Sequence record: LT603033
Length of the DNA stretch: 64,000 nt
From: Escherichia phage vB_Eco_slurp01
Reading direction: 5' to 3' (one strand)
In this document: in pieces, positions 2,015-56,115 of the stretch
Numbering within the stretch: position 1 is the first letter of the stretch
Layout: the number at the start of each line of letters is the position of its first letter
Translations under genes and position numbers: made by a program
The notes under the pieces: model-generated
What the model was told of the DNA's origin: nothing
The model's database searches: none
The model's input: only the letters and a program-made list of their open reading frames with translations

Positions 2015-2532
2015 TGGATATTAATGAGTTGTTGAAATTAGTGTTTAATCGTGAACGCCGCGATACAAGACCAATTGAATATCAAGATGTGATACGCATT
2101 GAAACTGATTTCTGTTATGGTAAAACAACTCATGACCTTTTGAATCTCTCTGGAAAACGCTATGCTGATGTTTGTTTTTCAGAGAGAAGTGATGGTTCAG
2201 AAATAACGAGTACTGATATTGTTTGTTACGCACGCAGTGCTGATAAATCTTATGAAATAGAACTTATATATTCCCCTAGTTCTAAAACAAATCATCACCG
2301 CCATATTTTATATGATGTTTACACACCACCTGGTATTGCTGAATATTTTGTTATTGATTATAGTACTGAAGAAAATGTGTTTCAACAAAGTTTGATTCAT
2401 AACTTTGAGGTGAATGATCCATTAGTACCAAAGTTGTTCAAACTACTTGACACCATAGATGTTGATTTTGAATTTGTTATGTGCATTAGAACTTCTTTAT
2501 TCAATGAATTCATGGAACTTTTTAATATATGA
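2014..2532 (+). CDS. hypothetical protein
   Basis: TAATG coupling; 172 aa. Confidence 0.65.
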   Translation: MDINELLKLVFNRERRDTRPIEYQDVIRIETDFCYGKTTHDLLNLSGKRYADVCFSERSDGSEITSTDIVCYARSADKSYEIELIYSPSSKTNHHRHILYDVYTPPGIAEYFVIDYSTEENVFQQSLIHNFEVNDPLVPKLFKLLDTIDVDFEFVMCIRTSLFNEFMELFNI

Positions 2533-2750
2533 ATAGATACTATGTTGTGTATGAACACGTCTCTGAATTTAATAACATACGCGGGTTTTCCAGAGTAGTC
2601 ACCAAGATGGATGTATTCATTCGTGCTCTTAGTGAAGTAGATGCACTGTTTAAATTGTTTGATGAAATTACAAAGTATAACACACCCAAAACACACCGCT
2701 ATGTGGAAACTGTACATAGCATTATACTAACTGAAAGTGATGAGGAATGA
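2529..2750 (+). CDS. hypothetical protein
   Basis: ATGA overlap; 73 aa. Confidence 0.6.
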   Translation: MNRYYVVYEHVSEFNNIRGFSRVVTKMDVFIRALSEVDALFKLFDEITKYNTPKTHRYVETVHSIILTESDEE

Positions 2751-2753
2751 TAA

Positions 2754-2972
2754 ATGAATTTATATCTAGTTGAAGGTTTAGTACAAGTCTATAAACCAGA
2801 AGGTGAAGGTCTACGTTTTTCACACGTAGAAGAATTTAAGTACGTTGTACAGGCTGATGGTCAGTACGATGCGGAAATTCAAGTAGATGAATCATTCCGT
2901 AAGAAAAATGAAATTGGTAAATTTCAATACCAGAACTTACAATACAAAGTATGGCCTAGTATAAATGACTAA
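2754..2972 (+). CDS. hypothetical protein
   Basis: ATG shortly after upstream stop; 72 aa. Confidence 0.6.
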   Translation: MNLYLVEGLVQVYKPEGEGLRFSHVEEFKYVVQADGQYDAEIQVDESFRKKNEIGKFQYQNLQYKVWPSIND

Positions 2973-3180
2973 GATGTGGTGGTGTCATGGTGTATATAAC
3001 GTGTATGTAAATGGTAGATATAAAATGTCTAGTACCTATGCAAGACGTGTTAATGCGAACAACCAAGTTGATGCTGCTTGTGAGATCATTGAGTGGTATG
3101 CTGAGTTCAATGCACCTGACTATATGTACGAAATAGTTACAATAAATGTTGTACAAATCGATACATCTTTGATACAATAA
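2965..3180 (+). CDS. hypothetical protein
   Basis: Overlapping start; 71 aa. Confidence 0.55.
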   Translation: MTKMWWCHGVYNVYVNGRYKMSSTYARRVNANNQVDAACEIIEWYAEFNAPDYMYEIVTINVVQIDTSLIQ

Positions 3181-3212
3181 CCACATCAAAAAAATTGCAT
3201 CTGAGGATACTT

Positions 3213-3875
3213 ATGTTAGTTAATCTTAATTTCATCACTTCACCTGACTGGGCATTACGTGGAGTTTCTTTAAACTTCAAGGAAACTATGTTTGACTACA
3301 TTGGTGAGTGTACATTGGTAAATGCAACTTTTGATCCAAATCATCCGTTTTGGGCTGAAATTCATGATCCAAATGTAAACAACAATACATCTGTTATGAC
3401 TATTGTCCAGACTAAACATGCAGGTATCCTTGCAGGTTATCGACCTGCACATGCAATTGAACACTTCACTGATTACGATGTCGTGGATGAATACCCAATG
3501 ATCCATGAAGATGGAAGTCTATACACATCTGAAGACTTCCGTGCTATCTTTAATAGTACTGATGATATTCTACCAAGTGGACGTCCACGTCCTGAGTCTT
3601 ATCTTATGCATTCATCTTATGGTGTAGCAGATACGCTTGAACAGATTATGAAGAAGTACAAGAACCTAATTGAAGGTCCAGAAGAAATTGTCTTGTGCTA
3701 TCACCCAGTACTGAAGTCTGAACAACCAAAGGATGGTGGATGGCGTTGGCATAAGAATGGTGAGTATATCGGTACTAAACGAAGTAAAGAACGTTTTGAG
3801 TACTTGTATGATGAGCCAGATGTTGATGTGGTTTTGTGTTATAATTTTATTAAGGTGAAAAAGAAATGTATCTAG
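3213..3875 (+). CDS. hypothetical protein
   Basis: ATG at 3213 with GAGGA RBS; track ORF starts at TTG 3195; about 220 aa. Confidence 0.65.
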   Translation: MLVNLNFITSPDWALRGVSLNFKETMFDYIGECTLVNATFDPNHPFWAEIHDPNVNNNTSVMTIVQTKHAGILAGYRPAHAIEHFTDYDVVDEYPMIHEDGSLYTSEDFRAIFNSTDDILPSGRPRPESYLMHSSYGVADTLEQIMKKYKNLIEGPEEIVLCYHPVLKSEQPKDGGWRWHKNGEYIGTKRSKERFEYLYDEPDVDVVLCYNFIKVKKKCI

Positions 3876-4108
3876 TACTAAGTTTTGTTGTTGCACTATT
3901 GTTTATGTTCTATCCTACACTAGTGGCATTAGCCACTAGGCGAACGATGGTAGATCTCACTACTGTATTCTTGCTAAACGTGGCATTAGTACTGGTGTCT
4001 ATTATCATTCCAGTGAGCTTTACAGTTATTGATATTATTTCGGTATTACTCTTCGTGTTAAGTTATCTTATGCTTATTGAAGAAACAAATGTTGACAAAC
4101 GTTCGTAG
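3866..4108 (+). CDS. small membrane protein
   Basis: Strongly hydrophobic 80-aa product. Confidence 0.55.
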   Translation: MYLVLSFVVALLFMFYPTLVALATRRTMVDLTTVFLLNVALVLVSIIIPVSFTVIDIISVLLFVLSYLMLIEETNVDKRS

Positions 4109-4166
4109 TACTGTATAATGGTTCCTGTAGTCTGAAACTTAACACTTAAACTTGAGGTAAAAAAAT

Positions 4167-4493
4167 ATGCTATCAGTACTAATTTCAATTCCGTCTTTAA
4201 TTCTGATTTGGCTTCTGGTTTACGAATGCTTCATTACTGATGATAATGATAAAAAAGAGTTCTCTGAGTTGTTTATGCTTGATTCACCGATTGTGCGTAT
4301 TTTCTATGCAGTCGTTGTGGTTTCAGTAATTGTATGGGTTTTGAGTTTTATCTTCCCACTCGGTGCAGTAGTTAAAACTTTGGATTTAGTTGAGAACTTT
4401 GTTGCAATTATGTGGCTAATCAAAGCACTATTTGCAGGAAATGTTAAAATTTGGATTGATATTATCAAATTCAAGTTCACGAATAAGATGTAA
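4167..4493 (+). CDS. membrane protein
   Basis: RBS GAGG; hydrophobic N-terminus and central helix. Confidence 0.6.
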   Translation: MLSVLISIPSLILIWLLVYECFITDDNDKKEFSELFMLDSPIVRIFYAVVVVSVIVWVLSFIFPLGAVVKTLDLVENFVAIMWLIKALFAGNVKIWIDIIKFKFTNKM

Positions 4494-4519
4494 CAGTGAA
4501 AATATCTCTATAGTATTAA

Positions 4520-4552
4520 ATACTTCTGTACATATATATAGTACAGAAGTAT
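4520..4552 (+). terminator. perfect palindromic hairpin (possible terminator)
   Basis: ATACTTCTGTAC-ATATATAT-GTACAGAAGTAT followed by TTTCT. Confidence 0.4.
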
Positions 4553-4571
4553 TTCTCGTTAGAGGTTTGTT

Positions 4572-4931
4572 ATGAAGAGTTATATAAAATTAATAGCACT
4601 TGTGTGTGCATTATTTTCATGTTTTAGTTATGGTGCAGCAGCAGAAACATATTGTCGTAGTACTAAGGGAACGTGGCATGTATTGACTAACGACCCTAGA
4701 AATGGTAAAAATATAGTTGTTGATGGTGTGATTTATCGTTTTAAAGTAGAAAGTATTATCGGTAATAAAAAAATCTCGACTTATAGAGATGATTCTGGTA
4801 CATTAGCAAACGTAATATTAATTGTAGACCCAAGAACTGGTAATGGTGATATCTATATAGTAATTTACTTGGACTCATCGGTACGCCGTGACCTAGATAT
4901 AGATAAATTGAACTTACACTGTGAAATATAG
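4572..4931 (+). CDS. secreted protein (signal peptide)
   Basis: N-terminal signal-like sequence ending GAAA; RBS AGAGG. Confidence 0.65.
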   Translation: MKSYIKLIALVCALFSCFSYGAAAETYCRSTKGTWHVLTNDPRNGKNIVVDGVIYRFKVESIIGNKKISTYRDDSGTLANVILIVDPRTGNGDIYIVIYLDSSVRRDLDIDKLNLHCEI

Positions 4932-4941
4932 GACTTAAAAA

Positions 4942-5319
4942 ATGGTAAACACTATTTTACTTTTGTTGTTGAATATTCCAATTATTCTGTCTTTTTTAAT
5001 TTCTATTTTTATGGCAGGATATTGTTTAGTTGCAGTAATTCATTTCATTTTAACAAACAAATATGTCCTAATTTCTAAGCTTGATTCTATTTTTGCTTGC
5101 GATTCGATTGCTTATAACTTGTGGTTAATTTGTTCTTGCATTATGGGAGTAACTTTCCTTCTGTATGTATTTGATGTCCTTGACCAAAAGTTCGTATACA
5201 TCAGTACTGGATTGGCTCTTTATCCTGCTACGTGGTACTTGATTTACGTTGGTGATATATGGTATAGTACTTATAAAGAATATCAGTACAAGAAATCACT
5301 TAACGTTGGAGGAAAATAA
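4942..5319 (+). CDS. membrane protein
   Basis: Multiple hydrophobic segments; 125 aa. Confidence 0.55.
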   Translation: MVNTILLLLLNIPIILSFLISIFMAGYCLVAVIHFILTNKYVLISKLDSIFACDSIAYNLWLICSCIMGVTFLLYVFDVLDQKFVYISTGLALYPATWYLIYVGDIWYSTYKEYQYKKSLNVGGK

Positions 5320-5321
5320 TC

Positions 5322-5672
5322 ATGAAAATTATTTTATTTTTTGTATGTATGTTAATGTGTGGATTGTCATATGCTGAACCATTGGAAGGTTTAGTTTGTA
5401 CAGATGGTAATATTAAACATATCTATCAAGGTGATAGTGACAATCGAGATATTGTATATATTGATGGACAATCATATACGTTTGTTAAAGAGCATACAGT
5501 AGGCGACATTAGCTTCACTGAGTTTTCTAACGACACAGACCCTAACTTCTTAGCGTTTATTGAAGTAGATGTATATGAAGATAGTAATGGCACACAATAT
5601 GCTAAATTAGTTATGATGCGTCGTGGTGCTAAAGAAACTAGTTTTGGTGGCTTGTGTAAATATAAGGATTGA
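5322..5672 (+). CDS. secreted protein (signal peptide)
   Basis: RBS GGAGG; signal-like N-terminus ending SYA. Confidence 0.65.
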   Translation: MKIILFFVCMLMCGLSYAEPLEGLVCTDGNIKHIYQGDSDNRDIVYIDGQSYTFVKEHTVGDISFTEFSNDTDPNFLAFIEVDVYEDSNGTQYAKLVMMRRGAKETSFGGLCKYKD

Positions 5673-5676
5673 TATT

Positions 5677-5868
5677 ATGTTGATTTATCAAAGTGATAAT
5701 ATTCGTGTTATGCAGCATCCCTACTTACAAATCTTTGATGTGCAGCAGTATATGGAAGGTGATGACCCAAGAACCTATGGTCGTAAGTATGATTACTTCA
5801 CTGTAAAGCAGTGTAAAAATATTAACGAAGTACGACAATTAGTTCAAGAACTTCAAAACAAAGGTTGA
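5677..5868 (+). CDS. hypothetical protein
   Basis: ATG at 5677 with AAGGA; stop TGA lies inside the downstream hairpin/-35. Confidence 0.5.
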   Translation: MLIYQSDNIRVMQHPYLQIFDVQQYMEGDDPRTYGRKYDYFTVKQCKNINEVRQLVQELQNKG

Positions 5869-5894
5869 CTTCGGTCAGCCTTTTTTGTTATAAT
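5863..5894 (+). promoter_or_regulatory. stem-loop/promoter hybrid (PeSL-like)
   Basis: GGTTGAC-TTCG-GTCAGCC hairpin with T-run, TTGACT as -35, TATAAT about 18 bp downstream. Confidence 0.6.
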
Positions 5895-5922
5895 TCTCTT
5901 AATAAATTAGAGGATTTTAATT

Positions 5923-6363
5923 ATGTATGTATATCGTTTTGAACTTAAATTTAGTTACATTGAACCTAACTTAGATCCTGCACGAACTGTAGGTCCGTTT
6001 GCACGGTATTCAACCAGATACAGTACTAAAAATGGATTTGACCGTTTGCTTATGACTACACCTTCTCAATTCCAACCTGAACCAACTGAGGATGGGATCT
6101 ATTCAATCAAAAGTGGATGGGTATTTGGCTGTCAAAGTTTGAAAGATTTGTTCAGATTCTTCACTATGGACTTGGGTAAATTGCATCGTGCTGGGTTTGC
6201 TATATCTGTATATGAAGTTCCAGACCACCATGTAGACATTGGTCGTAATCAGGTTCAGTACTATTGCGGTAGTGCTAAATTAGTTCGTATCATGTCAGTT
6301 AAGGAAGCAAAGGATGAGTTCCGACAAAGTAAAAGAGAAACACATGAGGTAATATATGGATAA
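5923..6363 (+). CDS. hypothetical protein
   Basis: RBS AGAGGA; 146 aa. Confidence 0.65.
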   Translation: MYVYRFELKFSYIEPNLDPARTVGPFARYSTRYSTKNGFDRLLMTTPSQFQPEPTEDGIYSIKSGWVFGCQSLKDLFRFFTMDLGKLHRAGFAISVYEVPDHHVDIGRNQVQYYCGSAKLVRIMSVKEAKDEFRQSKRETHEVIYG

Positions 6364-6700
6364 AACTCAAATAGAATTAAAGAAATTTGTTTCATTCTAT
6401 CTTCCTGATGACCCACGTAATTCACAAAAAGATATTGAATATTATAATATCCTATCTAAACAGTTAATGAGAAAGTTTCAACAGTGTTTAACTATATTCA
6501 ATACAGATGGAAGACGTAGATACCGAATCGTTTCAATGAATGATGAAAACGCAAATTTCTTTGATTACGATGTAGTTTTTAGAGCATATAATGATGATCG
6601 TATAAAATTAAATTATGATCAAATTATACTTGACCTGAATGTTATATGTGTTATAATCACTCACGTAGCCGAACTTAATGGTTTTAAAGAATGGTATTGA
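6356..6700 (+). CDS. hypothetical protein
   Basis: Overlapping start with GAGG RBS; 114 aa. Confidence 0.6.
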   Translation: MDKTQIELKKFVSFYLPDDPRNSQKDIEYYNILSKQLMRKFQQCLTIFNTDGRRRYRIVSMNDENANFFDYDVVFRAYNDDRIKLNYDQIILDLNVICVIITHVAELNGFKEWY

Positions 6701-6714
6701 ATAGAGGATAACAT

Positions 6715-6981
6715 ATGAAGCTTAAATTACAATATAATGGATTTACTTTACGTAATGATACTGAATTTATTAATCGTTCTCCTGGTGCTGAACTGTTTTT
6801 ACGAGAGATGAACATTCCTTTCATCATTACTACAGTGGGCGACCGTGAAGTTTTACAATATGCAGAGCATCCGATTATTGATGTTCCTTGGTACTCTGAG
6901 CATATGTACATGGATATGGCACGTCGCTACAACTGTAAGTTCGTAGTTGAAGGTGATAAAATTACAGTCGAATTTAAATAA
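6715..6981 (+). CDS. hypothetical protein
   Basis: RBS AGAGGA; 88 aa. Confidence 0.6.
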   Translation: MKLKLQYNGFTLRNDTEFINRSPGAELFLREMNIPFIITTVGDREVLQYAEHPIIDVPWYSEHMYMDMARRYNCKFVVEGDKITVEFK

Positions 6982-6993
6982 GGTAAATTAAAA

Positions 6994-7287
6994 ATGATCA
7001 GTACTTCAGTTAATGAAAGCATCGTCGCTGACGTAGAAATGGTTAAAGAATGTGCAGATGAAACTCTTCGTGATATGTACATTAATGATTTAATTACTGA
7101 ATACGGTAGTCGTGGTGTACACGAATTTATTCGTTTAAGTGGAGAGTTGATGAAAAATCGAATTCGTATGAAGCTTAACGTACATCCAAAAGCATGGGCA
7201 TTTACATTAAAATACGCAGAAGATATTGTGAATTTGCGTCGAACTGAAGTATATGAACGTTTGCACAATGGTATGTTAGATAAATGA
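6994..7287 (+). CDS. hypothetical protein
   Basis: RBS AAGG; 97 aa. Confidence 0.6.
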   Translation: MISTSVNESIVADVEMVKECADETLRDMYINDLITEYGSRGVHEFIRLSGELMKNRIRMKLNVHPKAWAFTLKYAEDIVNLRRTEVYERLHNGMLDK

Positions 7288-7339
7288 TTGTAAAATAGGA
7301 ATTCTTAAATGAATTCCTTTTTGTTTATAAGGTATAGTA

Positions 7340-7561
7340 ATGAAATATATAGTACTTGTACTGATATTATTCAGTACTGTTGTAAGTGCTAAACAAAAAG
7401 AATATATTAAATGTATAAATTATGAAGAGAAATATGTTGAAACATATAAAAAAAGTATAATTAAAAACGTTTCGATTACTAACAGAGCAACAATCATTGT
7501 ACTTAAAAATGGGTTAATTATGCTATATAAACCACACGTTAAATGTGAAATTATTAATTGA
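7340..7561 (+). CDS. small secreted protein
   Basis: Signal-like N-terminus; 73 aa. Confidence 0.55.
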   Translation: MKYIVLVLILFSTVVSAKQKEYIKCINYEEKYVETYKKSIIKNVSITNRATIIVLKNGLIMLYKPHVKCEIIN

Positions 7562-7568
7562 GGAAATT

Positions 7569-8141
7569 ATGAATCGTAAAGGTCGTTTTAAAGTATCAAA
7601 AAAGAACAAAAGTTCTAGGTTTAAACCTATTGTTTTAACAGTTAAATCTAACAAAGAATTAACTGCACTTAGTAAAAAGATAATTTCATCTAAGATTGAA
7701 GTATCATACGTAAATTCATTAAAATATATGAATGTCAAACCACTGGACCAACTCATTTCACTTATATTTGAACGTAATGATTTTGAGATATCAGTAGATG
7801 ATTATAGAGCCTATAATGCTGGTTTCATTAATGTTACTTGTAATAAAAAACTAACTGAGTTGGAAAATTTGTCATGTATAATAAATCTAGATAAAGGTGT
7901 TGTGAAGTACCATTTTGTACATTTCACTAATATCAATAATGGAATGGGTGTACAATCCAGACCTATAGTGCCTACGTGTGATGTTACTAAATTAGCAAAG
8001 CTCAATGATGAAGAATATTTTCAAGAAAGCATTGTAACTGAGCATTTAGATGATATAATAGCTACTTACAAAGAATGCATATGGGTGTTGAATGCTATAA
8101 AACCTAAATTGTGTTTAATGAATATTGTTCGTGATTTATGA
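7569..8141 (+). CDS. hypothetical protein
   Basis: ATG at 7569 with GAGGAA RBS; track ORF starts at GTG 7545. Confidence 0.6.
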   Translation: MNRKGRFKVSKKNKSSRFKPIVLTVKSNKELTALSKKIISSKIEVSYVNSLKYMNVKPLDQLISLIFERNDFEISVDDYRAYNAGFINVTCNKKLTELENLSCIINLDKGVVKYHFVHFTNINNGMGVQSRPIVPTCDVTKLAKLNDEEYFQESIVTEHLDDIIATYKECIWVLNAIKPKLCLMNIVRDL

Positions 8142-8154
8142 ATGGGGAATCGTA

Positions 8155-8598
8155 ATGAGTTGGGTAAATGTTAATAGTATTGAACTTAACGAACAAGATA
8201 TTTTTGCATTTGTAAATTTAACTAATAACACAGTACTAAAAGGGCGTTTGTTCAGTGCTAGTGATGGGTACAAATGGATCTCTTTGATGGATGATAGTGG
8301 TGTGATTTATAATGTAATGCAATTACCCCAATGGGTATATAGTAACACTGCTGACGATGTTCTTACCGCAGTTATGCGTGAGTTTGAAAAACTCCCAGGT
8401 GGTGATATCAAAAACAAAGTTTTTAATGCAGAACGTAAAAATTATACAGCACAGCAGTTGGAATCCCTTGCCATTGCTGCTTATCAAGCTGCTATTAAGA
8501 AGCCAGAGTGCGTTATTCTTAAGTATGTACCAGACTTAAAACTTACGTTGGAAGACATGGATGCATTCATTTTTACATCTGAACTTGGTCAGTACTAA
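8155..8598 (+). CDS. hypothetical protein
   Basis: First ATG with plausible RBS after upstream stop. Confidence 0.55.
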   Translation: MSWVNVNSIELNEQDIFAFVNLTNNTVLKGRLFSASDGYKWISLMDDSGVIYNVMQLPQWVYSNTADDVLTAVMREFEKLPGGDIKNKVFNAERKNYTAQQLESLAIAAYQAAIKKPECVILKYVPDLKLTLEDMDAFIFTSELGQY

Positions 8599-24915: not shown

Positions 24916-26085
24916 CTAAGCAGAAGGCATATCCTTCATTTTAATAAATGAAAATTGTGTACCAGTATTTGTGGTTTGATCAGTAAAATATGAATTACTA
25001 CCAGCCCAGTACAATTCATTATTAACTATACAATATATAACAGAACTCGAACTCTGTGAATACACACGACTTATATTTGATGGTTCCACTCCAGTACTGA
25101 ACTGAACCGAACCCAACTGTGAACTTGGTATCACATCAGTTGGTCTACCTAAACCATTAACACCAGCCCCACCACCACATGTATATACCCCAGTACTATC
25201 AGTTGATATATTAACATAACCATTCCCGGCATTTTCAAATAGTATTTCACTGGGAACAACACCAAATCCTGTAAGATCTATTTTCCTGAATGTAGTGTAA
25301 ACAGTAGAACCACCAACACCTCTTCCACCATAATCATTAGAACCAGCCATATAGATACTATATCCAGAACTTCCTAAACATAATAACTGTACGTTGTCAT
25401 ATAATATTTGCATAGATATAACGTTATCAGGAATACTCAATACCGTAAAAGTAGTTAAAGAAGAACTTCCAATATTACTACCAACCGATGTTCCACATCT
25501 GTAGTACTTACCGCCTTTTATATAATGGAACGATGAACCGCCTAACTTATGTGCTCCTATTGCACTTACCCCAGTATCTATAAGAATGGGAGATACAACT
25601 TTGTTATTAACACCTAACTCAGATCTACTGTTCATACCGAACCCATATAAACGACCATCTAACATCAATATTAGTGTACTACCGGAAGTACCCGCTGACG
25701 TAAATTCTATATTCTTTATTTGCGACACGTCAATACCTACAAATAATGAAGTTACTTCAGTCCAGTTAACATATGAACCACTAGCCCCAAAATATCCACC
25801 CATGTATAGACCTGCACAATATAACTTATTATCAACAGTCTTTATTAATGTACCGGATACACACGCCCAAAAATCATCAACTTCATAGGGTACATGTACC
25901 CAACCACCTAATACATCACTAGCATCCCCTGTACCTAATTTATAGTTCGAACCAGAACCACGCATGTACATATTCCCTGTACTATAAAGTAATCCGACAT
26001 GTAATTGACTACCATCCAATTTCTTTATTTCAGGAAGAGTTGGTTTAATATTTCCGTACTTTAACATTCTTCCAAAAGGTAACAT
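24916..26085 (-). CDS. RCC1-like repeat (beta-propeller) protein paralog 2
   Basis: 389 aa; N-terminus MLPFGRMLKYGNIKP; G/S/T/N/Y-rich repeats; RBS AAGGAGG. Confidence 0.8.
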   Translation of the reverse strand: MLPFGRMLKYGNIKPTLPEIKKLDGSQLHVGLLYSTGNMYMRGSGSNYKLGTGDASDVLGGWVHVPYEVDDFWACVSGTLIKTVDNKLYCAGLYMGGYFGASGSYVNWTEVTSLFVGIDVSQIKNIEFTSAGTSGSTLILMLDGRLYGFGMNSRSELGVNNKVVSPILIDTGVSAIGAHKLGGSSFHYIKGGKYYRCGTSVGSNIGSSSLTTFTVLSIPDNVISMQILYDNVQLLCLGSSGYSIYMAGSNDYGGRGVGGSTVYTTFRKIDLTGFGVVPSEILFENAGNGYVNISTDSTGVYTCGGGAGVNGLGRPTDVIPSSQLGSVQFSTGVEPSNISRVYSQSSSSVIYCIVNNELYWAGSNSYFTDQTTNTGTQFSFIKMKDMPSA

Positions 26086-26095
26086 ATTCCCTCCT

Positions 26096-27238
26096 TTATA
26101 TTATATTTAATTTTTGATATGTGGGATATATTTCTTGACTTGGTTTATCTAAAATATATTGTACGTTACCTGCACCATATAAACTACCATCAATAGTAGC
26201 TAATTTAACATTAGTATCACCAGCCACCCACGATGTCATTTTTGATGCACCTGGAACTAAAGTTGTATTTTTTACGCTGGTGGAAACGGAATTTACCCCC
26301 AAACTACTACTTAAGTTATATCCACTACTATAAACTTCACCATTAATTCTAAATTTAACGTATACTGGTAAGTTAACAGCATTACCATAGTTGTAGTTTG
26401 TATGCTTTATAAAACGAAACTCTGAACTTACATATGTTTCCGGTTGAGCTACACTGTATATATTGTATGACTGAAAGGTACTACCAGCCGCAGAATTTAA
26501 TAATCCAGTGTCCCCAGTATAGCCACTAAAATAAACTGAAGTAGCATCACTCCACATAAAACAAGATGTTGCAGTTAAATAAAAATCAATCACATTTGAC
26601 TTAACTACTCTTGGTGTCAGGTAACCAGTACCGCCCACAGTTGTGAAGCAGTTGAATCTGTTCTCACCCCACGCAACAACGTCGCCATTCGATCTTATTC
26701 CACATGCGTTCAGATGACCAAATTGCATTTTAGAAACACCAGTAAGGTTTGTATTTTGTGTCCATGTAGGGGCGTATGTTGTAGTACTTGCTAACCCAAT
26801 CATACCATATAAATTAGAACCTAAAACCCAAACTGAACCATCGGCGTTTACAATAACAGTTGCATGATCACGTGCAACATATATTTCGCTCGCATTGTCA
26901 AATTTGTCTTTGATTAAACTATCAATGTTAATAAAAACATTACCACTATCTCCATATGCATATGCTGCTCCACTAAACCAATATGAACTATCATTTTTTA
27001 AAATAGTTAATCCAGACTGACTAAACCAAAAATTAACCACATTTTCGGCTATTAATGTACGTACTGTAAGTGTTGTTCTATTTCCTAATCCAAATTGACC
27101 TGCTGATTGAGTCCCACTTGCATATAATTTACCATCACTTGTAAGTATTATACAACCATTTATTGTTAAATCTACTTTTTTTATATCAAGTGGGATTATC
27201 ATATTCCCGTACTGAATCATTCTTGCAAAAGGTAACAT
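26096..27238 (-). CDS. RCC1-like repeat protein paralog 3
   Basis: 380 aa; N-terminus MLPFARMIQYGN; GQFGLGN-type repeat motifs. Confidence 0.8.
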   Translation of the reverse strand: MLPFARMIQYGNMIIPLDIKKVDLTINGCIILTSDGKLYASGTQSAGQFGLGNRTTLTVRTLIAENVVNFWFSQSGLTILKNDSSYWFSGAAYAYGDSGNVFINIDSLIKDKFDNASEIYVARDHATVIVNADGSVWVLGSNLYGMIGLASTTTYAPTWTQNTNLTGVSKMQFGHLNACGIRSNGDVVAWGENRFNCFTTVGGTGYLTPRVVKSNVIDFYLTATSCFMWSDATSVYFSGYTGDTGLLNSAAGSTFQSYNIYSVAQPETYVSSEFRFIKHTNYNYGNAVNLPVYVKFRINGEVYSSGYNLSSSLGVNSVSTSVKNTTLVPGASKMTSWVAGDTNVKLATIDGSLYGAGNVQYILDKPSQEIYPTYQKLNII

Positions 27239-27309
27239 AATTCCCTCCTTTATTCATTATACTATATTTAATACAAATAAGAAAGCCAGTACTCTGTACT
27301 GGCATAATG
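27239..27309 (-). promoter_or_regulatory. conserved cassette: hairpin terminator + TATAAT + RBS
   Basis: On gene strand: GCCAGTAC-AGAG-TACTGGC, TTTCTTATTTGTATTAAATATAGTATAATGAATAAAGGAGG, then ATG. Confidence 0.55.
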
Positions 27310-53589: not shown

Positions 53590-53596
53590 AAAAAGT

Positions 53597-55256: not shown

Positions 55257-55587
55257 TATATTGACAATATCCTCCAGTACTGGCATAATACTTACATCAA
55301 GACGAGAACGTCACTAACCCATAGGGTGCACAAATGTAACTGTATAATATTGATCAAAAAATGATCTGATCAATACTTGATCAATTTGCGTAAAGTAGTA
55401 TAATTCTATGCAGTTGGTTAGACGAAAGGTTATGATTAGTAGTGCAAGTGTATAAAAATTTTCATGGTGTATCGTTTCGCACATATGGGGATGAATATGT
55501 GGTATCATGTGGATTGGAAAAAGTAAGAACAAGTAATATTATTGTCGCATTACAGTACTATAGTATTTTTATAATGAGGTTAAAATA
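55257..55587. promoter_or_regulatory. 330-bp non-coding control region with tandem promoters and TTGATCAA/GATC cluster
   Basis: TTGACA...CATAAT; conserved AACCCATAGGGTGCA motif; TATAAT then TTGATCAA x3 (4 GATC in about 35 bp). Confidence 0.5.
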
Positions 55588-55845
55588 ATGGCTGTAGGAT
55601 TCGCGAAAGATGGGGCCGAACAAGACGAGATTAACGCAGTGATTCAGGCCGCCGTTAACCACGCTAGAAAGCAAATTAACGCACAAATAGAATCACTGAT
55701 ACATTGCCTCGACTGCGGCGATATAATCCCTGAGAAACGACGCCAGGCCGTTAAGGGGTGTAAGTACTGCATAACTTGCCAGGAGGATCATGATAGTACT
55801 TTTAAACGTCCCCCGCGTAATTGTTGGCATAGATCTATGAGATAA
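55588..55845 (+). CDS. DksA/TraR-family C4 zinc-finger protein
   Basis: C-x2-C-G-x-x-I-P-E-x-R-R...C-x2-C pattern (CLDCGDIIPEKRRQAVKGCKYCITC); RBS GAGG. Confidence 0.6.
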   Translation: MAVGFAKDGAEQDEINAVIQAAVNHARKQINAQIESLIHCLDCGDIIPEKRRQAVKGCKYCITCQEDHDSTFKRPPRNCWHRSMR

Positions 55846-55920
55846 AAAGTATTGACAGTACTATCCAGTAGTGTTATAGTACTTACATCAAGGGGAAACA
55901 TCTTCCCCTACTAAGAGGAA

Positions 55921-56115
55921 ATGAAAATGGAAAACTTATCAAGTATTTTAGTACAAGATGATTTCGGTAATCCTGGAAGTGCTATCATTGTTCGGGGTAA
56001 TAAAGCAACATTTGTTATTGCTGGTGGACCTGTACAGCGTAGCATTAAAAATAATGCTGTTACCATTAATAATGTACGCTATCGCTTAGATAAAGAATTG
56101 ATTCATAAACTGTAA
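55921..56115 (+). CDS. hypothetical protein
   Basis: RBS AAGAGGAA; 64 aa. Confidence 0.6.
   Translation: MKMENLSSILVQDDFGNPGSAIIVRGNKATFVIAGGPVQRSIKNNAVTINNVRYRLDKELIHKL

What the first reader, a model, noticed from the sequence alone, without database searches (positions are those of the whole stretch)
55588..55845. DksA/TraR-family zinc-finger protein among early genes
The C-terminal CLDCGDIIPEKRRQAVKGCKYCITC matches the C4 zinc-finger signature of TraR/DksA-like proteins that modulate RNA polymerase via the secondary channel. In an early-gene cluster this would fit redirection of host transcription, for example rRNA promoter shutoff or stringent-like reprogramming.
Basis: inference. Interest (0 to 1): 0.45.

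Follow-up and report, generated by a model that had tools for sequence, protein, structure and literature searches.

The report
YbiI-type DksA/TraR zinc-finger phage protein
This is a real, conserved 85-residue zinc-finger gene of the DksA/TraR superfamily in a jumbo coliphage, already annotated as such in near-identical phages; it most likely binds the host RNA polymerase, but it lacks the tip motif that TraR needs to shut off rRNA promoters.

Summary
The ORF at 55588..55845 (+) is real and encodes exactly the quoted peptide. It passes Pfam's threshold for the dksA/traR C4 zinc finger (41.2 vs 24.9 bits), and its profile aligns with TraR at 99% probability. The window is an Asteriusvirus-type jumbo coliphage (PBECO4 group, about 98% identity).

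The "early gene" setting is supported by sequence only: 12 perfect sigma-70 consensus promoters, all on the + strand, against 0.21 expected.

The functional reading is only partly supported. The protein belongs to the uncharacterised YbiI branch, not to TraR proper.
- The TraR/DksA DxxDxA tip motif is absent here and in 0 of 80 phage homologues. It is replaced by a conserved MAVGFAKDGAEQ N-terminus.
- The C-terminal helix is short and is followed by a conserved tail, FKRxPRNCWHRSMR. Most relatives carry ...NRRGSKDSQLR instead.
- The equivalents of TraR E46, R48 and R49 are conserved.

Binding in the RNA polymerase secondary channel is therefore the best inference (about 0.55). TraR-like rRNA promoter shut-off is unproven. 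Interest is low to moderate.

The parts
55588..55845 (+). CDS of the 85-aa DksA/TraR-superfamily (YbiI-type) zinc-finger protein, stop codon included
   Evidence: ORF list. Pfam PF01258 above threshold. PHROG 54. Amino-acid sequence identical to the annotated 'DksA-like zinc-finger protein' XDC03261.1 of phage E9.1.
55588..55623 (+). Codons 1-12, MAVGFAKDGAEQ: the conserved N-terminal tip that starts at the initiator Met. It stands in place of the TraR DxxDxA motif.
   Evidence: Alignment A1: M1, A2, G4, G9, Q12 invariant; A6, K7, D8, A10 at least 90% conserved. The same motif is seen in the representative hits. All 80 phage homologues have G[FW] at the N-terminus and none has DxxDxA. This stretch is not aligned to TraR by hhalign.
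55600..55683 (+). Codons 5-32: predicted long N-terminal alpha-helix, equivalent to TraR residues 2-27, which enter the secondary channel
   Evidence: AlphaFold2 model, helix 5-32, mean pLDDT 74. TraR domain limits from PMC6970531.
55705..55779 (+). C4 zinc ribbon, CLDC-N17-CITC (C40, C43, C61, C64), including IPEKRR (E49, R51, R52 = TraR E46, R48, R49)
   Evidence: Motif scan. Alignments to TraR. Invariant columns C40, C43, I47, R51, R52, G57, C61, C64 in A1.
55801..55842 (+). Codons 72-85, FKRPPRNCWHRSMR: clade-specific conserved C-terminal tail that ends at the C-terminus, predicted unstructured
   Evidence: A1. 21 of 80 phage loci end in CWHRSMR and 58 of 80 end in NRRGSKDSQLR. P0170 (...HNRKVWHRSMR) is intermediate between the two tails. 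Separate PHROG 25948 hit on residues 59-85. Low pLDDT.
55576..55579 (+). Shine-Dalgarno GAGG, 8 nt upstream of the ATG
   Evidence: Read directly from the sequence. This stretch is 100% conserved in relatives.
55261..55289 (+). Nearest strong sigma-70-type promoter upstream (TTGACA-17-CATAAT with TGn extended -10), the likely promoter of the unit
   Evidence: Promoter scan, 11 of 12 matches with TG. Conserved in E9.1 and L009. It belongs to the TTGACA-N8/9-AGTACTG-TATAAT family. Assigning it to this gene is inference.
55290..55587 (+). Leader of about 300 nt between promoter and gene. It holds a CCCATAGGGTGC motif (55318-55329), weaker promoter-like sites, and a small ORF (55442/55499..55588) whose stop overlaps the ATG.
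   Evidence: The middle part is diverged in L009 while both ends are conserved. No Rfam match.
55852..55880 (+). Promoter of the next gene (TTGACA-17-TATAGT), starting 7 nt after the stop codon; it marks the end of the unit
   Evidence: Its leader with the hairpin GGGGAA/TTCCCC is shown.

Best explanation
The gene encodes a small zinc-ribbon protein of the DksA/TraR superfamily, YbiI branch. It is made from host-type (sigma-70) promoters soon after infection by an Asteriusvirus-type jumbo coliphage.

It most likely binds the host RNA polymerase directly, without binding DNA. [quoted passage not shown] The 28-residue N-terminal helix, with its conserved N-terminus (MAVGFAKDGAEQ), would reach down the channel towards the active site. 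By doing so it would change initiation kinetics, or block access of host channel factors, to the phage's benefit.

**Shown:** the gene is real and under selection; its family membership; its fold class; conservation of the rim-helix and Si3 contact residues; the promoter-rich setting.

**Inferred:** RNAP binding; early timing; any effect on rRNA promoters.

Because the tip lacks DxxDxA and the C-terminus is a different conserved tail, the outcome at the active site need not be the TraR-like inhibition of rRNA promoters.
For: - Pfam PF01258 scores 41.2 bits against a 24.9 cut-off. PHROG 54 matches at 1e-18.
- hhalign of the family profile against a TraR/Orf73 profile gives probability 99.2% and E 3e-19 over residues 19-74.
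- Foldseek of the AF2 model returns YbiI (2kgo), TraR bound to RNAP (6n57_M) and DksA bound to RNAP (7khi_M) as its top three hits.
- E49, R51 and R52 align with TraR E46, R48 and R49. R51 and R52 are invariant in the family and E49 is at least 90% conserved. In TraR these are the rim-helix and Si3 contacts (PMC9239242; PMC6970531).
- The predicted N-terminal helix (5-32) matches the length of TraR's channel helix (2-27).
- D8 lies 32 residues before the first Cys, against 31 for TraR D6. In 31 phage homologues carrying an [FW]xxD tip the spacing is 30-33.
- All five phage TraR homologues tested so far bind RNAP (PMC9239242). E. coli YbiI was reported to rescue dksA auxotrophy when over-expressed, as data not shown (PMC2613031).
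- There are 12 perfect TTGACA-N16-18-TATAAT sites, all on the + strand, against 0.21 expected. The homologous region of phage CBB is interpreted as early (PMC5259590).
- No gene partner is conserved in phages or bacteria, which fits a free-standing factor acting on a universal target.
Against: - The DxxDxA motif, needed for function but not for binding in TraR, Orf73 and DksA, is absent. None of 80 phage homologues has it.
- hhalign does not align the first 18 residues with TraR. MAFFT and HMMER give conflicting registers for the tip.
- The C-terminal helix is predicted to be only about 10 residues (62-71), followed by a low-confidence tail.
- Short DksA homologues that lack DxxDxA and the C-terminal helix (RSP0166, SMc00049) do not act like DksA (PMC9239242, section 18).
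- NCBIfam scores for YbiI (81.4 vs 96) and for the TraR subfamily TIGR02419 (52.5 vs 59.7) fall below their cut-offs.
- No experiment on any YbiI-type phage protein was found in the library. Merlin's homologue is explicitly described as of unknown function.
Confidence: 0.55

Rival explanations
1. It is a true TraR mimic. It binds the secondary channel and, without ppGpp, inhibits rRNA and ribosomal-protein promoters and activates others. This would free RNAP for the very strong phage promoters.
For: - It is homologous to TraR and lambda Orf73.
- The rim-helix and Si3 contact residues are conserved.
- D8 and A10 could correspond to the two critical DksA tip residues D74 and A76. MAFFT aligns FAK--DGAEQDE with FPDPVDRAAQEE, and the importance of D74/A76 is documented in PMC4010833.
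- YbiI was reported to rescue dksA auxotrophy.
- Orf73 raises lambda burst size 3-4 fold.
Against: - The first Asp of the motif is replaced by Phe (Trp in bacteria). D3N alone cripples Orf73.
- hhalign leaves the tips unaligned.
- The C-terminal region that contacts beta Si1 in TraR is different here.
- There are no functional data.
Confidence: 0.3
2. It occupies the secondary channel with a different outcome. It could act as a blocker or competitor that excludes host DksA, GreA or GreB, for example making RNAP insensitive to the stringent response triggered by infection. Alternatively it could act as a Gre-like or anti-Gre factor in elongation.
For: - The RNAP-docking features are conserved while the catalytic-site tip differs and is itself highly conserved.
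- The phage clade has D8-x-x-E11, the spacing of the Gre DxxExA tip noted in PMC9239242.
- A distinct, strongly conserved C-terminal tail implies an additional contact that TraR does not make.
Against: - This is purely inferential.
- E11 is Val in the bacterial branch, so DxxE is not a family feature.
- Nothing identifies the partner of the tail.
Confidence: 0.2
3. The target is not RNAP. The YbiI-type zinc ribbon with its basic tail would bind another conserved macromolecule, such as a nucleic acid, the ribosome or another enzyme. In that case the DksA/TraR resemblance reflects fold ancestry only.
For: - The two elements that define TraR function beyond the zinc ribbon are not conserved.
- The most conserved parts of the family are its two termini, which have no counterpart in TraR.
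Against: - The fiu-ybiX linkage is not conserved in other bacteria.
- The TraR R48/R49/E46 equivalents are conserved across the family.
- The best structural matches are RNAP-bound TraR and DksA.
- YbiI was reported to complement a dksA mutant.
Confidence: 0.12
4. The ORF is spurious or decaying and has no function.
For: A chimeric 55-aa remnant of the gene exists in Mosigvirus phages, so the gene can be lost.
Against: - dN/dS is 0.12.
- Homologues occur in 652 phage records.
- The start, stop and both termini are conserved.
- There is a good Shine-Dalgarno sequence.
Confidence: 0.01

Closest known systems
E. coli YbiI (b0803; PDB 2KGO; NCBIfam NF008243/PRK11019), an uncharacterised RpoS-dependent zinc-finger protein
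   Same: - Best sequence and structure match, with 39% identity over the Foldseek alignment.
- The same N-terminal architecture, starting at Met1: MA-x-G-[FW]-A-x-D-x-A.
- The same zinc ribbon with IPxxRR, and similar length (85 vs 88 aa).
- It is a free-standing gene.
   Different: - The C-terminal tail is FKRPPRNCWHRSMR instead of the near-invariant GYNRRGSKDSQLR.
- The score is below the equivalog cut-off (81.4 < 96).
- Residue 11 is Glu in the phage clade and Val in bacteria.
- It is a phage early-region gene, not an RpoS-regulated chromosomal gene.
- The function of YbiI itself is unknown.
TraR of the F plasmid (PDB 5W1S, 6N57)
   Same: - Small single-helix plus C4 zinc-ribbon architecture.
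- hhalign probability 99% over residues 19-74.
- E46, R48, R49, G54 and all four Cys are conserved.
- The N-terminal helix is of similar length.
   Different: - There is no DxxDxA tip, and the tips are not alignable.
- The distance from the N-terminus to the first Cys is 3 residues longer.
- The predicted C-terminal helix is shorter and is followed by a tail.
- Identity is 26%.
- TIGR02419 scores below its cut-off.
Bacteriophage lambda Orf73 (a TraR homologue that reprograms host transcription and raises burst size)
   Same: - It is a phage-encoded small DksA/TraR protein expressed early.
- phmmer matches residues 26-72, including CxxCGDxIxExRR...GC..C..CQED.
   Different: - Orf73 has DxxDxA (D3, D6, A8), and these residues are needed for activity.
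- Orf73 has no conserved basic tail.
- Orf73 comes from a temperate phage, whereas this gene is from a lytic jumbo phage.
DksA (E. coli)
   Same: - The same zinc-finger family.
- MAFFT places D8, A10 and Q12 opposite the DksA tip residues D74, A76 and Q78.
- Structural hit to RNAP-bound DksA.
   Different: - DksA is 151 aa, with a two-helix coiled coil, ppGpp-contact residues and a C-terminal helix.
- NF033459 matches at only E 0.049.
- The aligned stretch is only the zinc ribbon.
DksA/TraR-domain proteins of T4-like phages (e.g. Merlin gp107, Moon, fHe-Yen9-01, vB_EcoM_RZ, VR25)
   Same: - They are direct orthologues, at 64-73% identity over the full 85 aa, with the same N-terminus and the same CWHRSMR tail.
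- They lie in the plastic tk-rI early region.
   Different: - The host genome type differs: about 170-kb Straboviridae against a roughly 350-kb jumbo phage.
- The neighbouring genes are unrelated.
- Their function is also unknown (PMC4591318).

Membership tests
DksA/TraR C4 zinc-finger superfamily (Pfam PF01258) | Profile match above Pfam's gathering score | tested here: met
   41.2 bits against 24.9, E 1.6e-10, residues 39-68.
DksA/TraR C4 zinc-finger superfamily (Pfam PF01258) | Four cysteines arranged as CxxC-N17-CxxC | tested here: met
   C40, C43, C61 and C64 are invariant in alignment A1.
TraR family (functional definition of Gopalkrishnan/Gourse, PMC9239242) | N-terminal helix carrying the DxxDxA motif, required for activity | tested here: not met
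   The sequence is F5-A-K-D8-G-A10. There is no DxxDxA in the first 20 residues of this protein or of 80 phage homologues. hhalign does not align residues 1-18 with the TraR tip. D8 and A10 may correspond to the second Asp and the Ala on spacing (32 vs 31 residues to Cys1) and on the MAFFT alignment to DksA, but the register is ambiguous.
TraR family (functional definition) | Globular-domain residues that contact the beta' rim helices and beta'Si3 (TraR R48, R49, E46) | tested here: met
   R51 and R52 are invariant and E49 is at least 90% conserved in A1. They align to TraR R48, R49 and E46.
TraR family (functional definition) | C-terminal helix that contacts the beta lobe Si1 | tested here: inconclusive
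   AF2 predicts a helix at 62-71 only (TraR: 58-73), followed by a low-confidence tail. hhalign covers up to TraR residue 70. The tail sequence is unrelated to TraR.
TraR family (functional definition) | Direct binding to RNAP, inhibition of rrnB P1, and complementation of a dksA deletion | not testable with these tools
   These need biochemistry or genetics. The only indirect support is the 'data not shown' statement for E. coli YbiI (PMC2613031).
TIGR02419 (phage/conjugal plasmid C4 zinc finger, TraR family) | Score above NCBIfam's curated cut-off | tested here: not met
   52.5 bits against a cut-off of 59.7.
YbiI (NCBIfam NF008243 / PRK11019 equivalog) | Score above the curated cut-off | tested here: not met
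   81.4 bits against a cut-off of 96. This is the best-scoring NCBIfam model, covering residues 1-72.
YbiI branch (as delineated here from 150 representatives) | N-terminus MA-x-G-[FW]-A-x-D-G-A-x-Q starting at Met1 | tested here: met
   MAVGFAKDGAEQ.
YbiI branch (as delineated here) | C-terminal ...[YF]NRRGSKDSQLR-COOH | tested here: not met
   It is replaced by ...PRNCWHRSMR-COOH. R77 and the terminal R85 are shared. The intermediate form ...HNRKVWHRSMR in P0170 suggests that the two tails are homologous.
DksA proper | Two-helix coiled coil with a DxxDxA tip, ppGpp-binding residues, length about 150 aa | tested here: not met
   The protein is 85 aa with a single N-terminal helix. NF033459 matches at E 0.049 and 13.9 bits against a cut-off of 105.
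PHROG 54 (DksA-like zinc-finger protein) | Profile match | tested here: met
   E 1.1e-18 over residues 12-76 of the protein, covering profile positions 9-72 of 75.

The most novel reading that the evidence does not exclude
The YbiI-type proteins may be a mechanistically distinct class of small RNAP-channel (or other) effectors rather than TraR mimics.

The profile search found 2,696 cluster representatives (347 at E <= 1e-10); the best 150 are nearly all of this type. tblastn found homologues in 652 phage records, mostly large lytic T4-like and jumbo phages.

Their defining parts are the free N-terminus G-[FW]-x-x-D and an almost invariant C-terminal peptide, NRRGSKDSQLR. One phage clade, which includes this window, has re-engineered that tail to PRNCWHRSMR. 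One possible reason is to act on the same host target with a different outcome, or to compete with host YbiI.
Probability: 0.3. Interest if true: 0.55.

Novelty: already known. Interest (0 to 1): 0.22.

Why it matters
As the finding stands, it adds nothing new. The identical protein is already deposited and named, and DksA/TraR-domain genes were noted in T4-like phages as early as 2006 and again in 2015.

The value lies in the refinement. Large lytic coliphages carry the YbiI type, not the TraR type. The YbiI type lacks the motif on which the TraR mechanism depends, and it has two strongly conserved termini of unknown role. Neither bacterial YbiI nor any phage member has been characterised.

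A short list of experiments could therefore assign a function to a very widespread small-protein family. It could also show whether lytic phages manipulate the RNAP secondary channel differently from lambda and F.

Tried and rejected
- **Conserved neighbours in phages.** Clustering of flanking ORFs in 80 phage loci plus the window found no family shared between the jumbo-phage locus and other lineages.
- **Conserved neighbours in bacteria.** The contexts differ: fiu-ybiX-ybiI in K-12, trpE-ybiI-selO-trpGDC, and GGDEF/SnoaL elsewhere. The idea that the YbiX hydroxylase acts on the tail therefore has no support.
- **Aligning the tip to DxxDxA.** HMMER gives an ungapped register (query residue i = TraR residue i-3) that does not match the acidic residues. 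MAFFT matches D8/A10/Q12 to DksA D74/A76/Q78 but not to TraR. hhalign leaves the tips unaligned. The register therefore remains unresolved.
- **A TraR homologue search for a diverse profile.** It returned only close TraR relatives, so the TraR profile used is shallow.
- **Second copy in the window.** None was found.
- **Known RNA family in the roughly 300-nt leader or in 52-60 kb.** None at E <= 0.1.
- **A clear promoter immediately upstream of the ATG.** Only weak matches were found. The strongly conserved 60 nt upstream contain AGTACT-TAGTAT but a poor -35.
- **Literature searches for YbiI function or for any tested phage YbiI-type protein.** Nothing was found beyond RpoS dependence and a 'data not shown' remark.

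Full report
**1. The observation**

An ATG-initiated ORF of 85 codons lies at 55588..55845 on the + strand. It encodes MAVGFAKDGAEQDEINAVIQAAVNHARKQINAQIESLIHCLDCGDIIPEKRRQAVKGCKYCITCQEDHDSTFKRPPRNCWHRSMR. A GAGG Shine-Dalgarno sequence lies 8 nt upstream, and the ATG overlaps the stop of a small upstream ORF (TAATG).

The family match is well beyond chance:
- Pfam PF01258 (zf-dskA_traR): 41.2 bits against a gathering score of 24.9, E 1.6e-10.
- PHROG 54, 'DksA-like zinc-finger protein': E 1.1e-18.
- Best NCBIfam models: the YbiI equivalog NF008243 (81.4 bits, below its cut-off of 96) and the TraR subfamily TIGR02419 (52.5 against 59.7).
- Solved structures: E. coli YbiI (2kgo, E 2e-12) first, then TraR (5w1s/6n57, E 1e-5).

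**2. Where the window comes from, and whether the gene is known**

The 3 kb around the gene are 97-98% identical to Escherichia phage PBECO4, SP27, E9.1, BF17 and other 310-385-kb jumbo phages of E. coli and Salmonella. Several of these records already annotate the gene as 'DksA-like zinc-finger protein', 'DksA C4-type domain-containing protein' or 'TraR/DksA C4-type zinc finger protein'. The E9.1 protein XDC03261.1 is identical in amino-acid sequence. A cluster at 99% identity is also named in NCBI.

The gene is under purifying selection. dN/dS is 0.12 against a relative with 91% nucleotide identity. Against T4-like phages, synonymous sites are saturated while about 70% of residues are kept. 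Its G+C content (46.9%) lies in the top 0.3% of same-sized windows of this 35.6% G+C sequence. That fits horizontal acquisition, though amino-acid composition could also contribute.

**3. Setting**

The gene lies in a run of small co-oriented + strand ORFs, all belonging to PHROGs of unknown function. Consensus sigma-70 promoters are interspersed among them.
- The window has 12 perfect TTGACA-N16-18-TATAAT sites, all on the + strand, against 0.21 expected. Eight of them lie between 54 and 63 kb.
- The nearest strong promoter upstream is at 55261-55289: TTGACA-17-CATAAT with an extended -10 TG. It is conserved in relatives.
- The next promoter starts 7 nt after the stop codon.

The equivalent promoter-rich block of short ORFs in the related phage CBB was interpreted as the early, host-takeover region (PMC5259590). 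In T4-like phages the orthologue sits in the plastic tk-rI region. 'Early gene' is therefore a well-founded inference, but no expression data were found.

**4. Which kind of DksA/TraR protein it is**

*Relatives.* Homologues fall into two groups.
- The first group holds phage proteins of 84-87 aa, from jumbo phages and from about 170-kb T4-like phages (Moon, Merlin, fHe-Yen9-01, MHG19, vB_EcoM_RZ). They are 62-99% identical to the window protein.
- The second group holds bacterial proteins, mostly of 88 aa, of the YbiI type. They are 42-52% identical.

*Size of the family.* A profile search of 1.84 billion cluster representatives found 2,696 hits, 347 of them at E <= 1e-10. The top 150 are almost all YbiI-type. 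tblastn finds homologues in 652 phage records, mostly large lytic phages of Escherichia, Klebsiella, Acinetobacter, Erwinia and Enterobacter.

*The two termini.* Two features define this branch, and both sit at the very ends of the protein.
- The N-terminus starts at Met1. It reads MA-x-G-[FW]-A-x-D-G-A-[VE]-Q in the close relatives, and G-[FW] is kept in all 80 phage loci examined.
- The C-terminal peptide is ...[YF]NRRGSKDSQLR, present in 58 of 80 phage loci and in most bacterial members. It stays invariant even where the rest of the protein has diverged to 35-45% identity.
- The window's clade (21 of 80 loci) has ...FKRxPRNCWHRSMR instead. One representative...HNRKVWHRSMR, is intermediate, which suggests the two tails are homologous.

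**5. Test against the features that make TraR work**

According to PMC9239242 and PMC6970531, TraR has three functional elements.
- An N-terminal helix (residues 2-27) carries DxxDxA. Its tip lies 4.3 Å from the active-site Mg2+. D3 and D6 are needed for inhibition but not for binding.
- A C4 globular domain binds the beta' rim helices through R48 and contacts beta'Si3 through E46, R49 and K50.
- A C-terminal helix (residues 58-73) moves the beta lobe/Si1.

Results for the window protein:
- **Zinc ribbon and contact residues: present.** The equivalents of E46, R48 and R49 are E49, R51 and R52. R51 and R52 are invariant in the family and E49 is at least 90% conserved.
- **Homology of the core: clear.** hhalign of the family profile against a TraR/Orf73 profile gives 99.2% probability over residues 19-74.
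- **Fold: as expected.** The AlphaFold2 model (mean pLDDT 74) has helix 5-32, the zinc ribbon, a short helix 62-71 and low-confidence ends. Its best structural matches are YbiI, RNAP-bound TraR and RNAP-bound DksA.
- **DxxDxA: absent.** The sequence is F5-A-K-D8-G-A10. None of 80 phage homologues has the motif in the first 20 residues. hhalign leaves the first 18 residues unaligned.
- **A possible partial equivalence.** D8 lies 32 residues before the first Cys, against 31 for TraR D6 and 29 for Orf73 D6. MAFFT puts D8, A10 and Q12 opposite DksA D74, A76 and Q78. D74 and A76 are the critical DksA residues (PMC4010833). The second Asp and the Ala may therefore be retained, with the first Asp replaced by an aromatic residue. 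This register is not robust.
- **C-terminal helix: short,** and followed by the clade-specific tail.

Short DksA homologues that lack DxxDxA and the C-terminal helix are inactive as DksA (PMC9239242, section 18).

**6. What is known about the nearest relative**

E. coli YbiI is of unknown function. Its promoter is RpoS-dependent (PMC4447067). Blankschien et al. state, as data not shown, that over-expressed YbiI rescues the amino-acid auxotrophy of a dksA mutant but not of a relA spoT mutant. They nevertheless guessed at a role in iron metabolism, from its position next to fiu-ybiX (PMC2613031).

That linkage is not conserved in three other bacterial contexts examined. Phage neighbours are not conserved across lineages either. 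The gene therefore behaves as a free-standing module. [quoted passage not shown]

**7. Most likely mechanism**

The best-supported reading, at about 0.55, has four parts:
- the protein is made early from host-type promoters;
- it docks on host RNAP at the secondary-channel rim through the conserved zinc-ribbon surface;
- it inserts its N-terminal helix and conserved N-terminus into the channel;
- it changes the behaviour of RNAP without binding DNA.

Whether the result is TraR-like inhibition of rRNA and r-protein promoters is open (about 0.3). It could instead occupy the channel with another outcome, such as excluding DksA or Gre factors, or a Gre-like D8-x-x-E11 tip in the phage clade (about 0.2). 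A target other than RNAP cannot be excluded (about 0.12). A spurious ORF is excluded.

**8. Verdict**

The 'early' context is reasonable. The specific functional claim goes beyond the evidence, because the protein belongs to the uncharacterised YbiI branch and lacks the motif on which TraR's activity depends.

The gene is already annotated in public records, so its novelty is 'already known' and its interest is low. One lead is worthwhile: the strongly conserved termini of a very widespread, untested family of small phage and bacterial proteins.

Noticed in passing
window 24916-39443, minus strand: A tandem array of about 12 paralogous genes of 358-433 aa. The three that were tested match PHROG 4219, 'regulator of chromosome condensation' (RCC1-like repeats), with E-values down to 4e-112.
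   Followed up: partly
window, + strand: 4092, 14719, 44884, 54156, 54738, 56473, 57442, 57782, 58052, 58483, 60913, 62438: A family of perfect sigma-70 consensus promoters with a conserved spacer, TTGACA-N8/9-AGTACTG-TATAAT (12 against 0.21 expected). About half are followed by a stereotyped leader, (a/t)TTACATCAAG + GGGGAGAA....TTCTCCCC hairpin + ACTAAGAGGAAA + ATG. This places a 5' stem-loop right after the predicted start site.
   Followed up: partly
window, + strand: 5865, 9291, 10909, 11993, 17492, 19673, 53599, 57207, 60475, 62743: A composite terminator-promoter repeat, with 10 copies of the core TTGACTYCGGTCAGYC against 0.01 expected. Read in full at 53592, 57200 and 5 further copies, it is AAAGGG-TTGACTYCGGTCAG-CCCTTT-GCTATAAT: the terminator hairpin contains a TTGACT -35 box and its T-tract runs into a -10 box.
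   Followed up: partly
window 45616(-), 47768, 47825(-), 49354(-), 53654, 55318, 57257, 60530, 62793: The motif CCCAYMGGGTGC occurs 9 times against 0.19 expected. At least five of the six + strand copies lie about 25-50 nt downstream of a promoter, including one in the leader of the zinc-finger gene. Those five are followed by TGTAWCT and, in three cases, a further TATAAT-like box. There is no Rfam match, and the role is unexplained.
   Followed up: partly
window 55845-55921 compared with L001 8709-9208 (phage E9.1): E9.1, BAU.Micro_ELP-22, JP4, CRJP21 and others carry an acetyltransferase gene (357 nt in E9.1) between the zinc-finger gene and the next gene. It is absent from the window, which points to an insertion/deletion hot-spot directly downstream.
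   Followed up: no
L003 2459-2626 (Mosigvirus vB_VIPECOMC06); also JN02, EP02SG: A 55-aa ORF (PHROG 25948) keeps only the second CxxC and the FKREPRNCWHRSMR tail of the zinc-finger protein, fused to an unrelated N-terminus. It is a chimeric remnant of the gene in the same tk-rI region.
   Followed up: partly
window 55290-55587: The roughly 300-nt stretch between the promoter and the zinc-finger gene is mosaic. The first ~90 nt and the last ~60 nt are nearly identical in a relative whose gene is 91% identical, while the middle is only about 65% identical. The small ORFs in it (48 aa with a GTG start, or 29 aa as annotated in E9.1) are of doubtful coding status.
   Followed up: partly
window 55588-55845: The G+C content of the gene is 46.9% against 35.6% for the window, which puts it in the top 0.3% of 258-nt windows. 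This is compatible with horizontal acquisition.
   Followed up: no
L089 (bacterial contig ERZ25039603 contig_1094) 2511-8267: In one bacterium the ybiI homologue and a selO gene are inserted between trpE and trpG-trpD-trpC. In E. coli K-12 the gene follows fiu-ybiX. The bacterial context is therefore variable.
   Followed up: no
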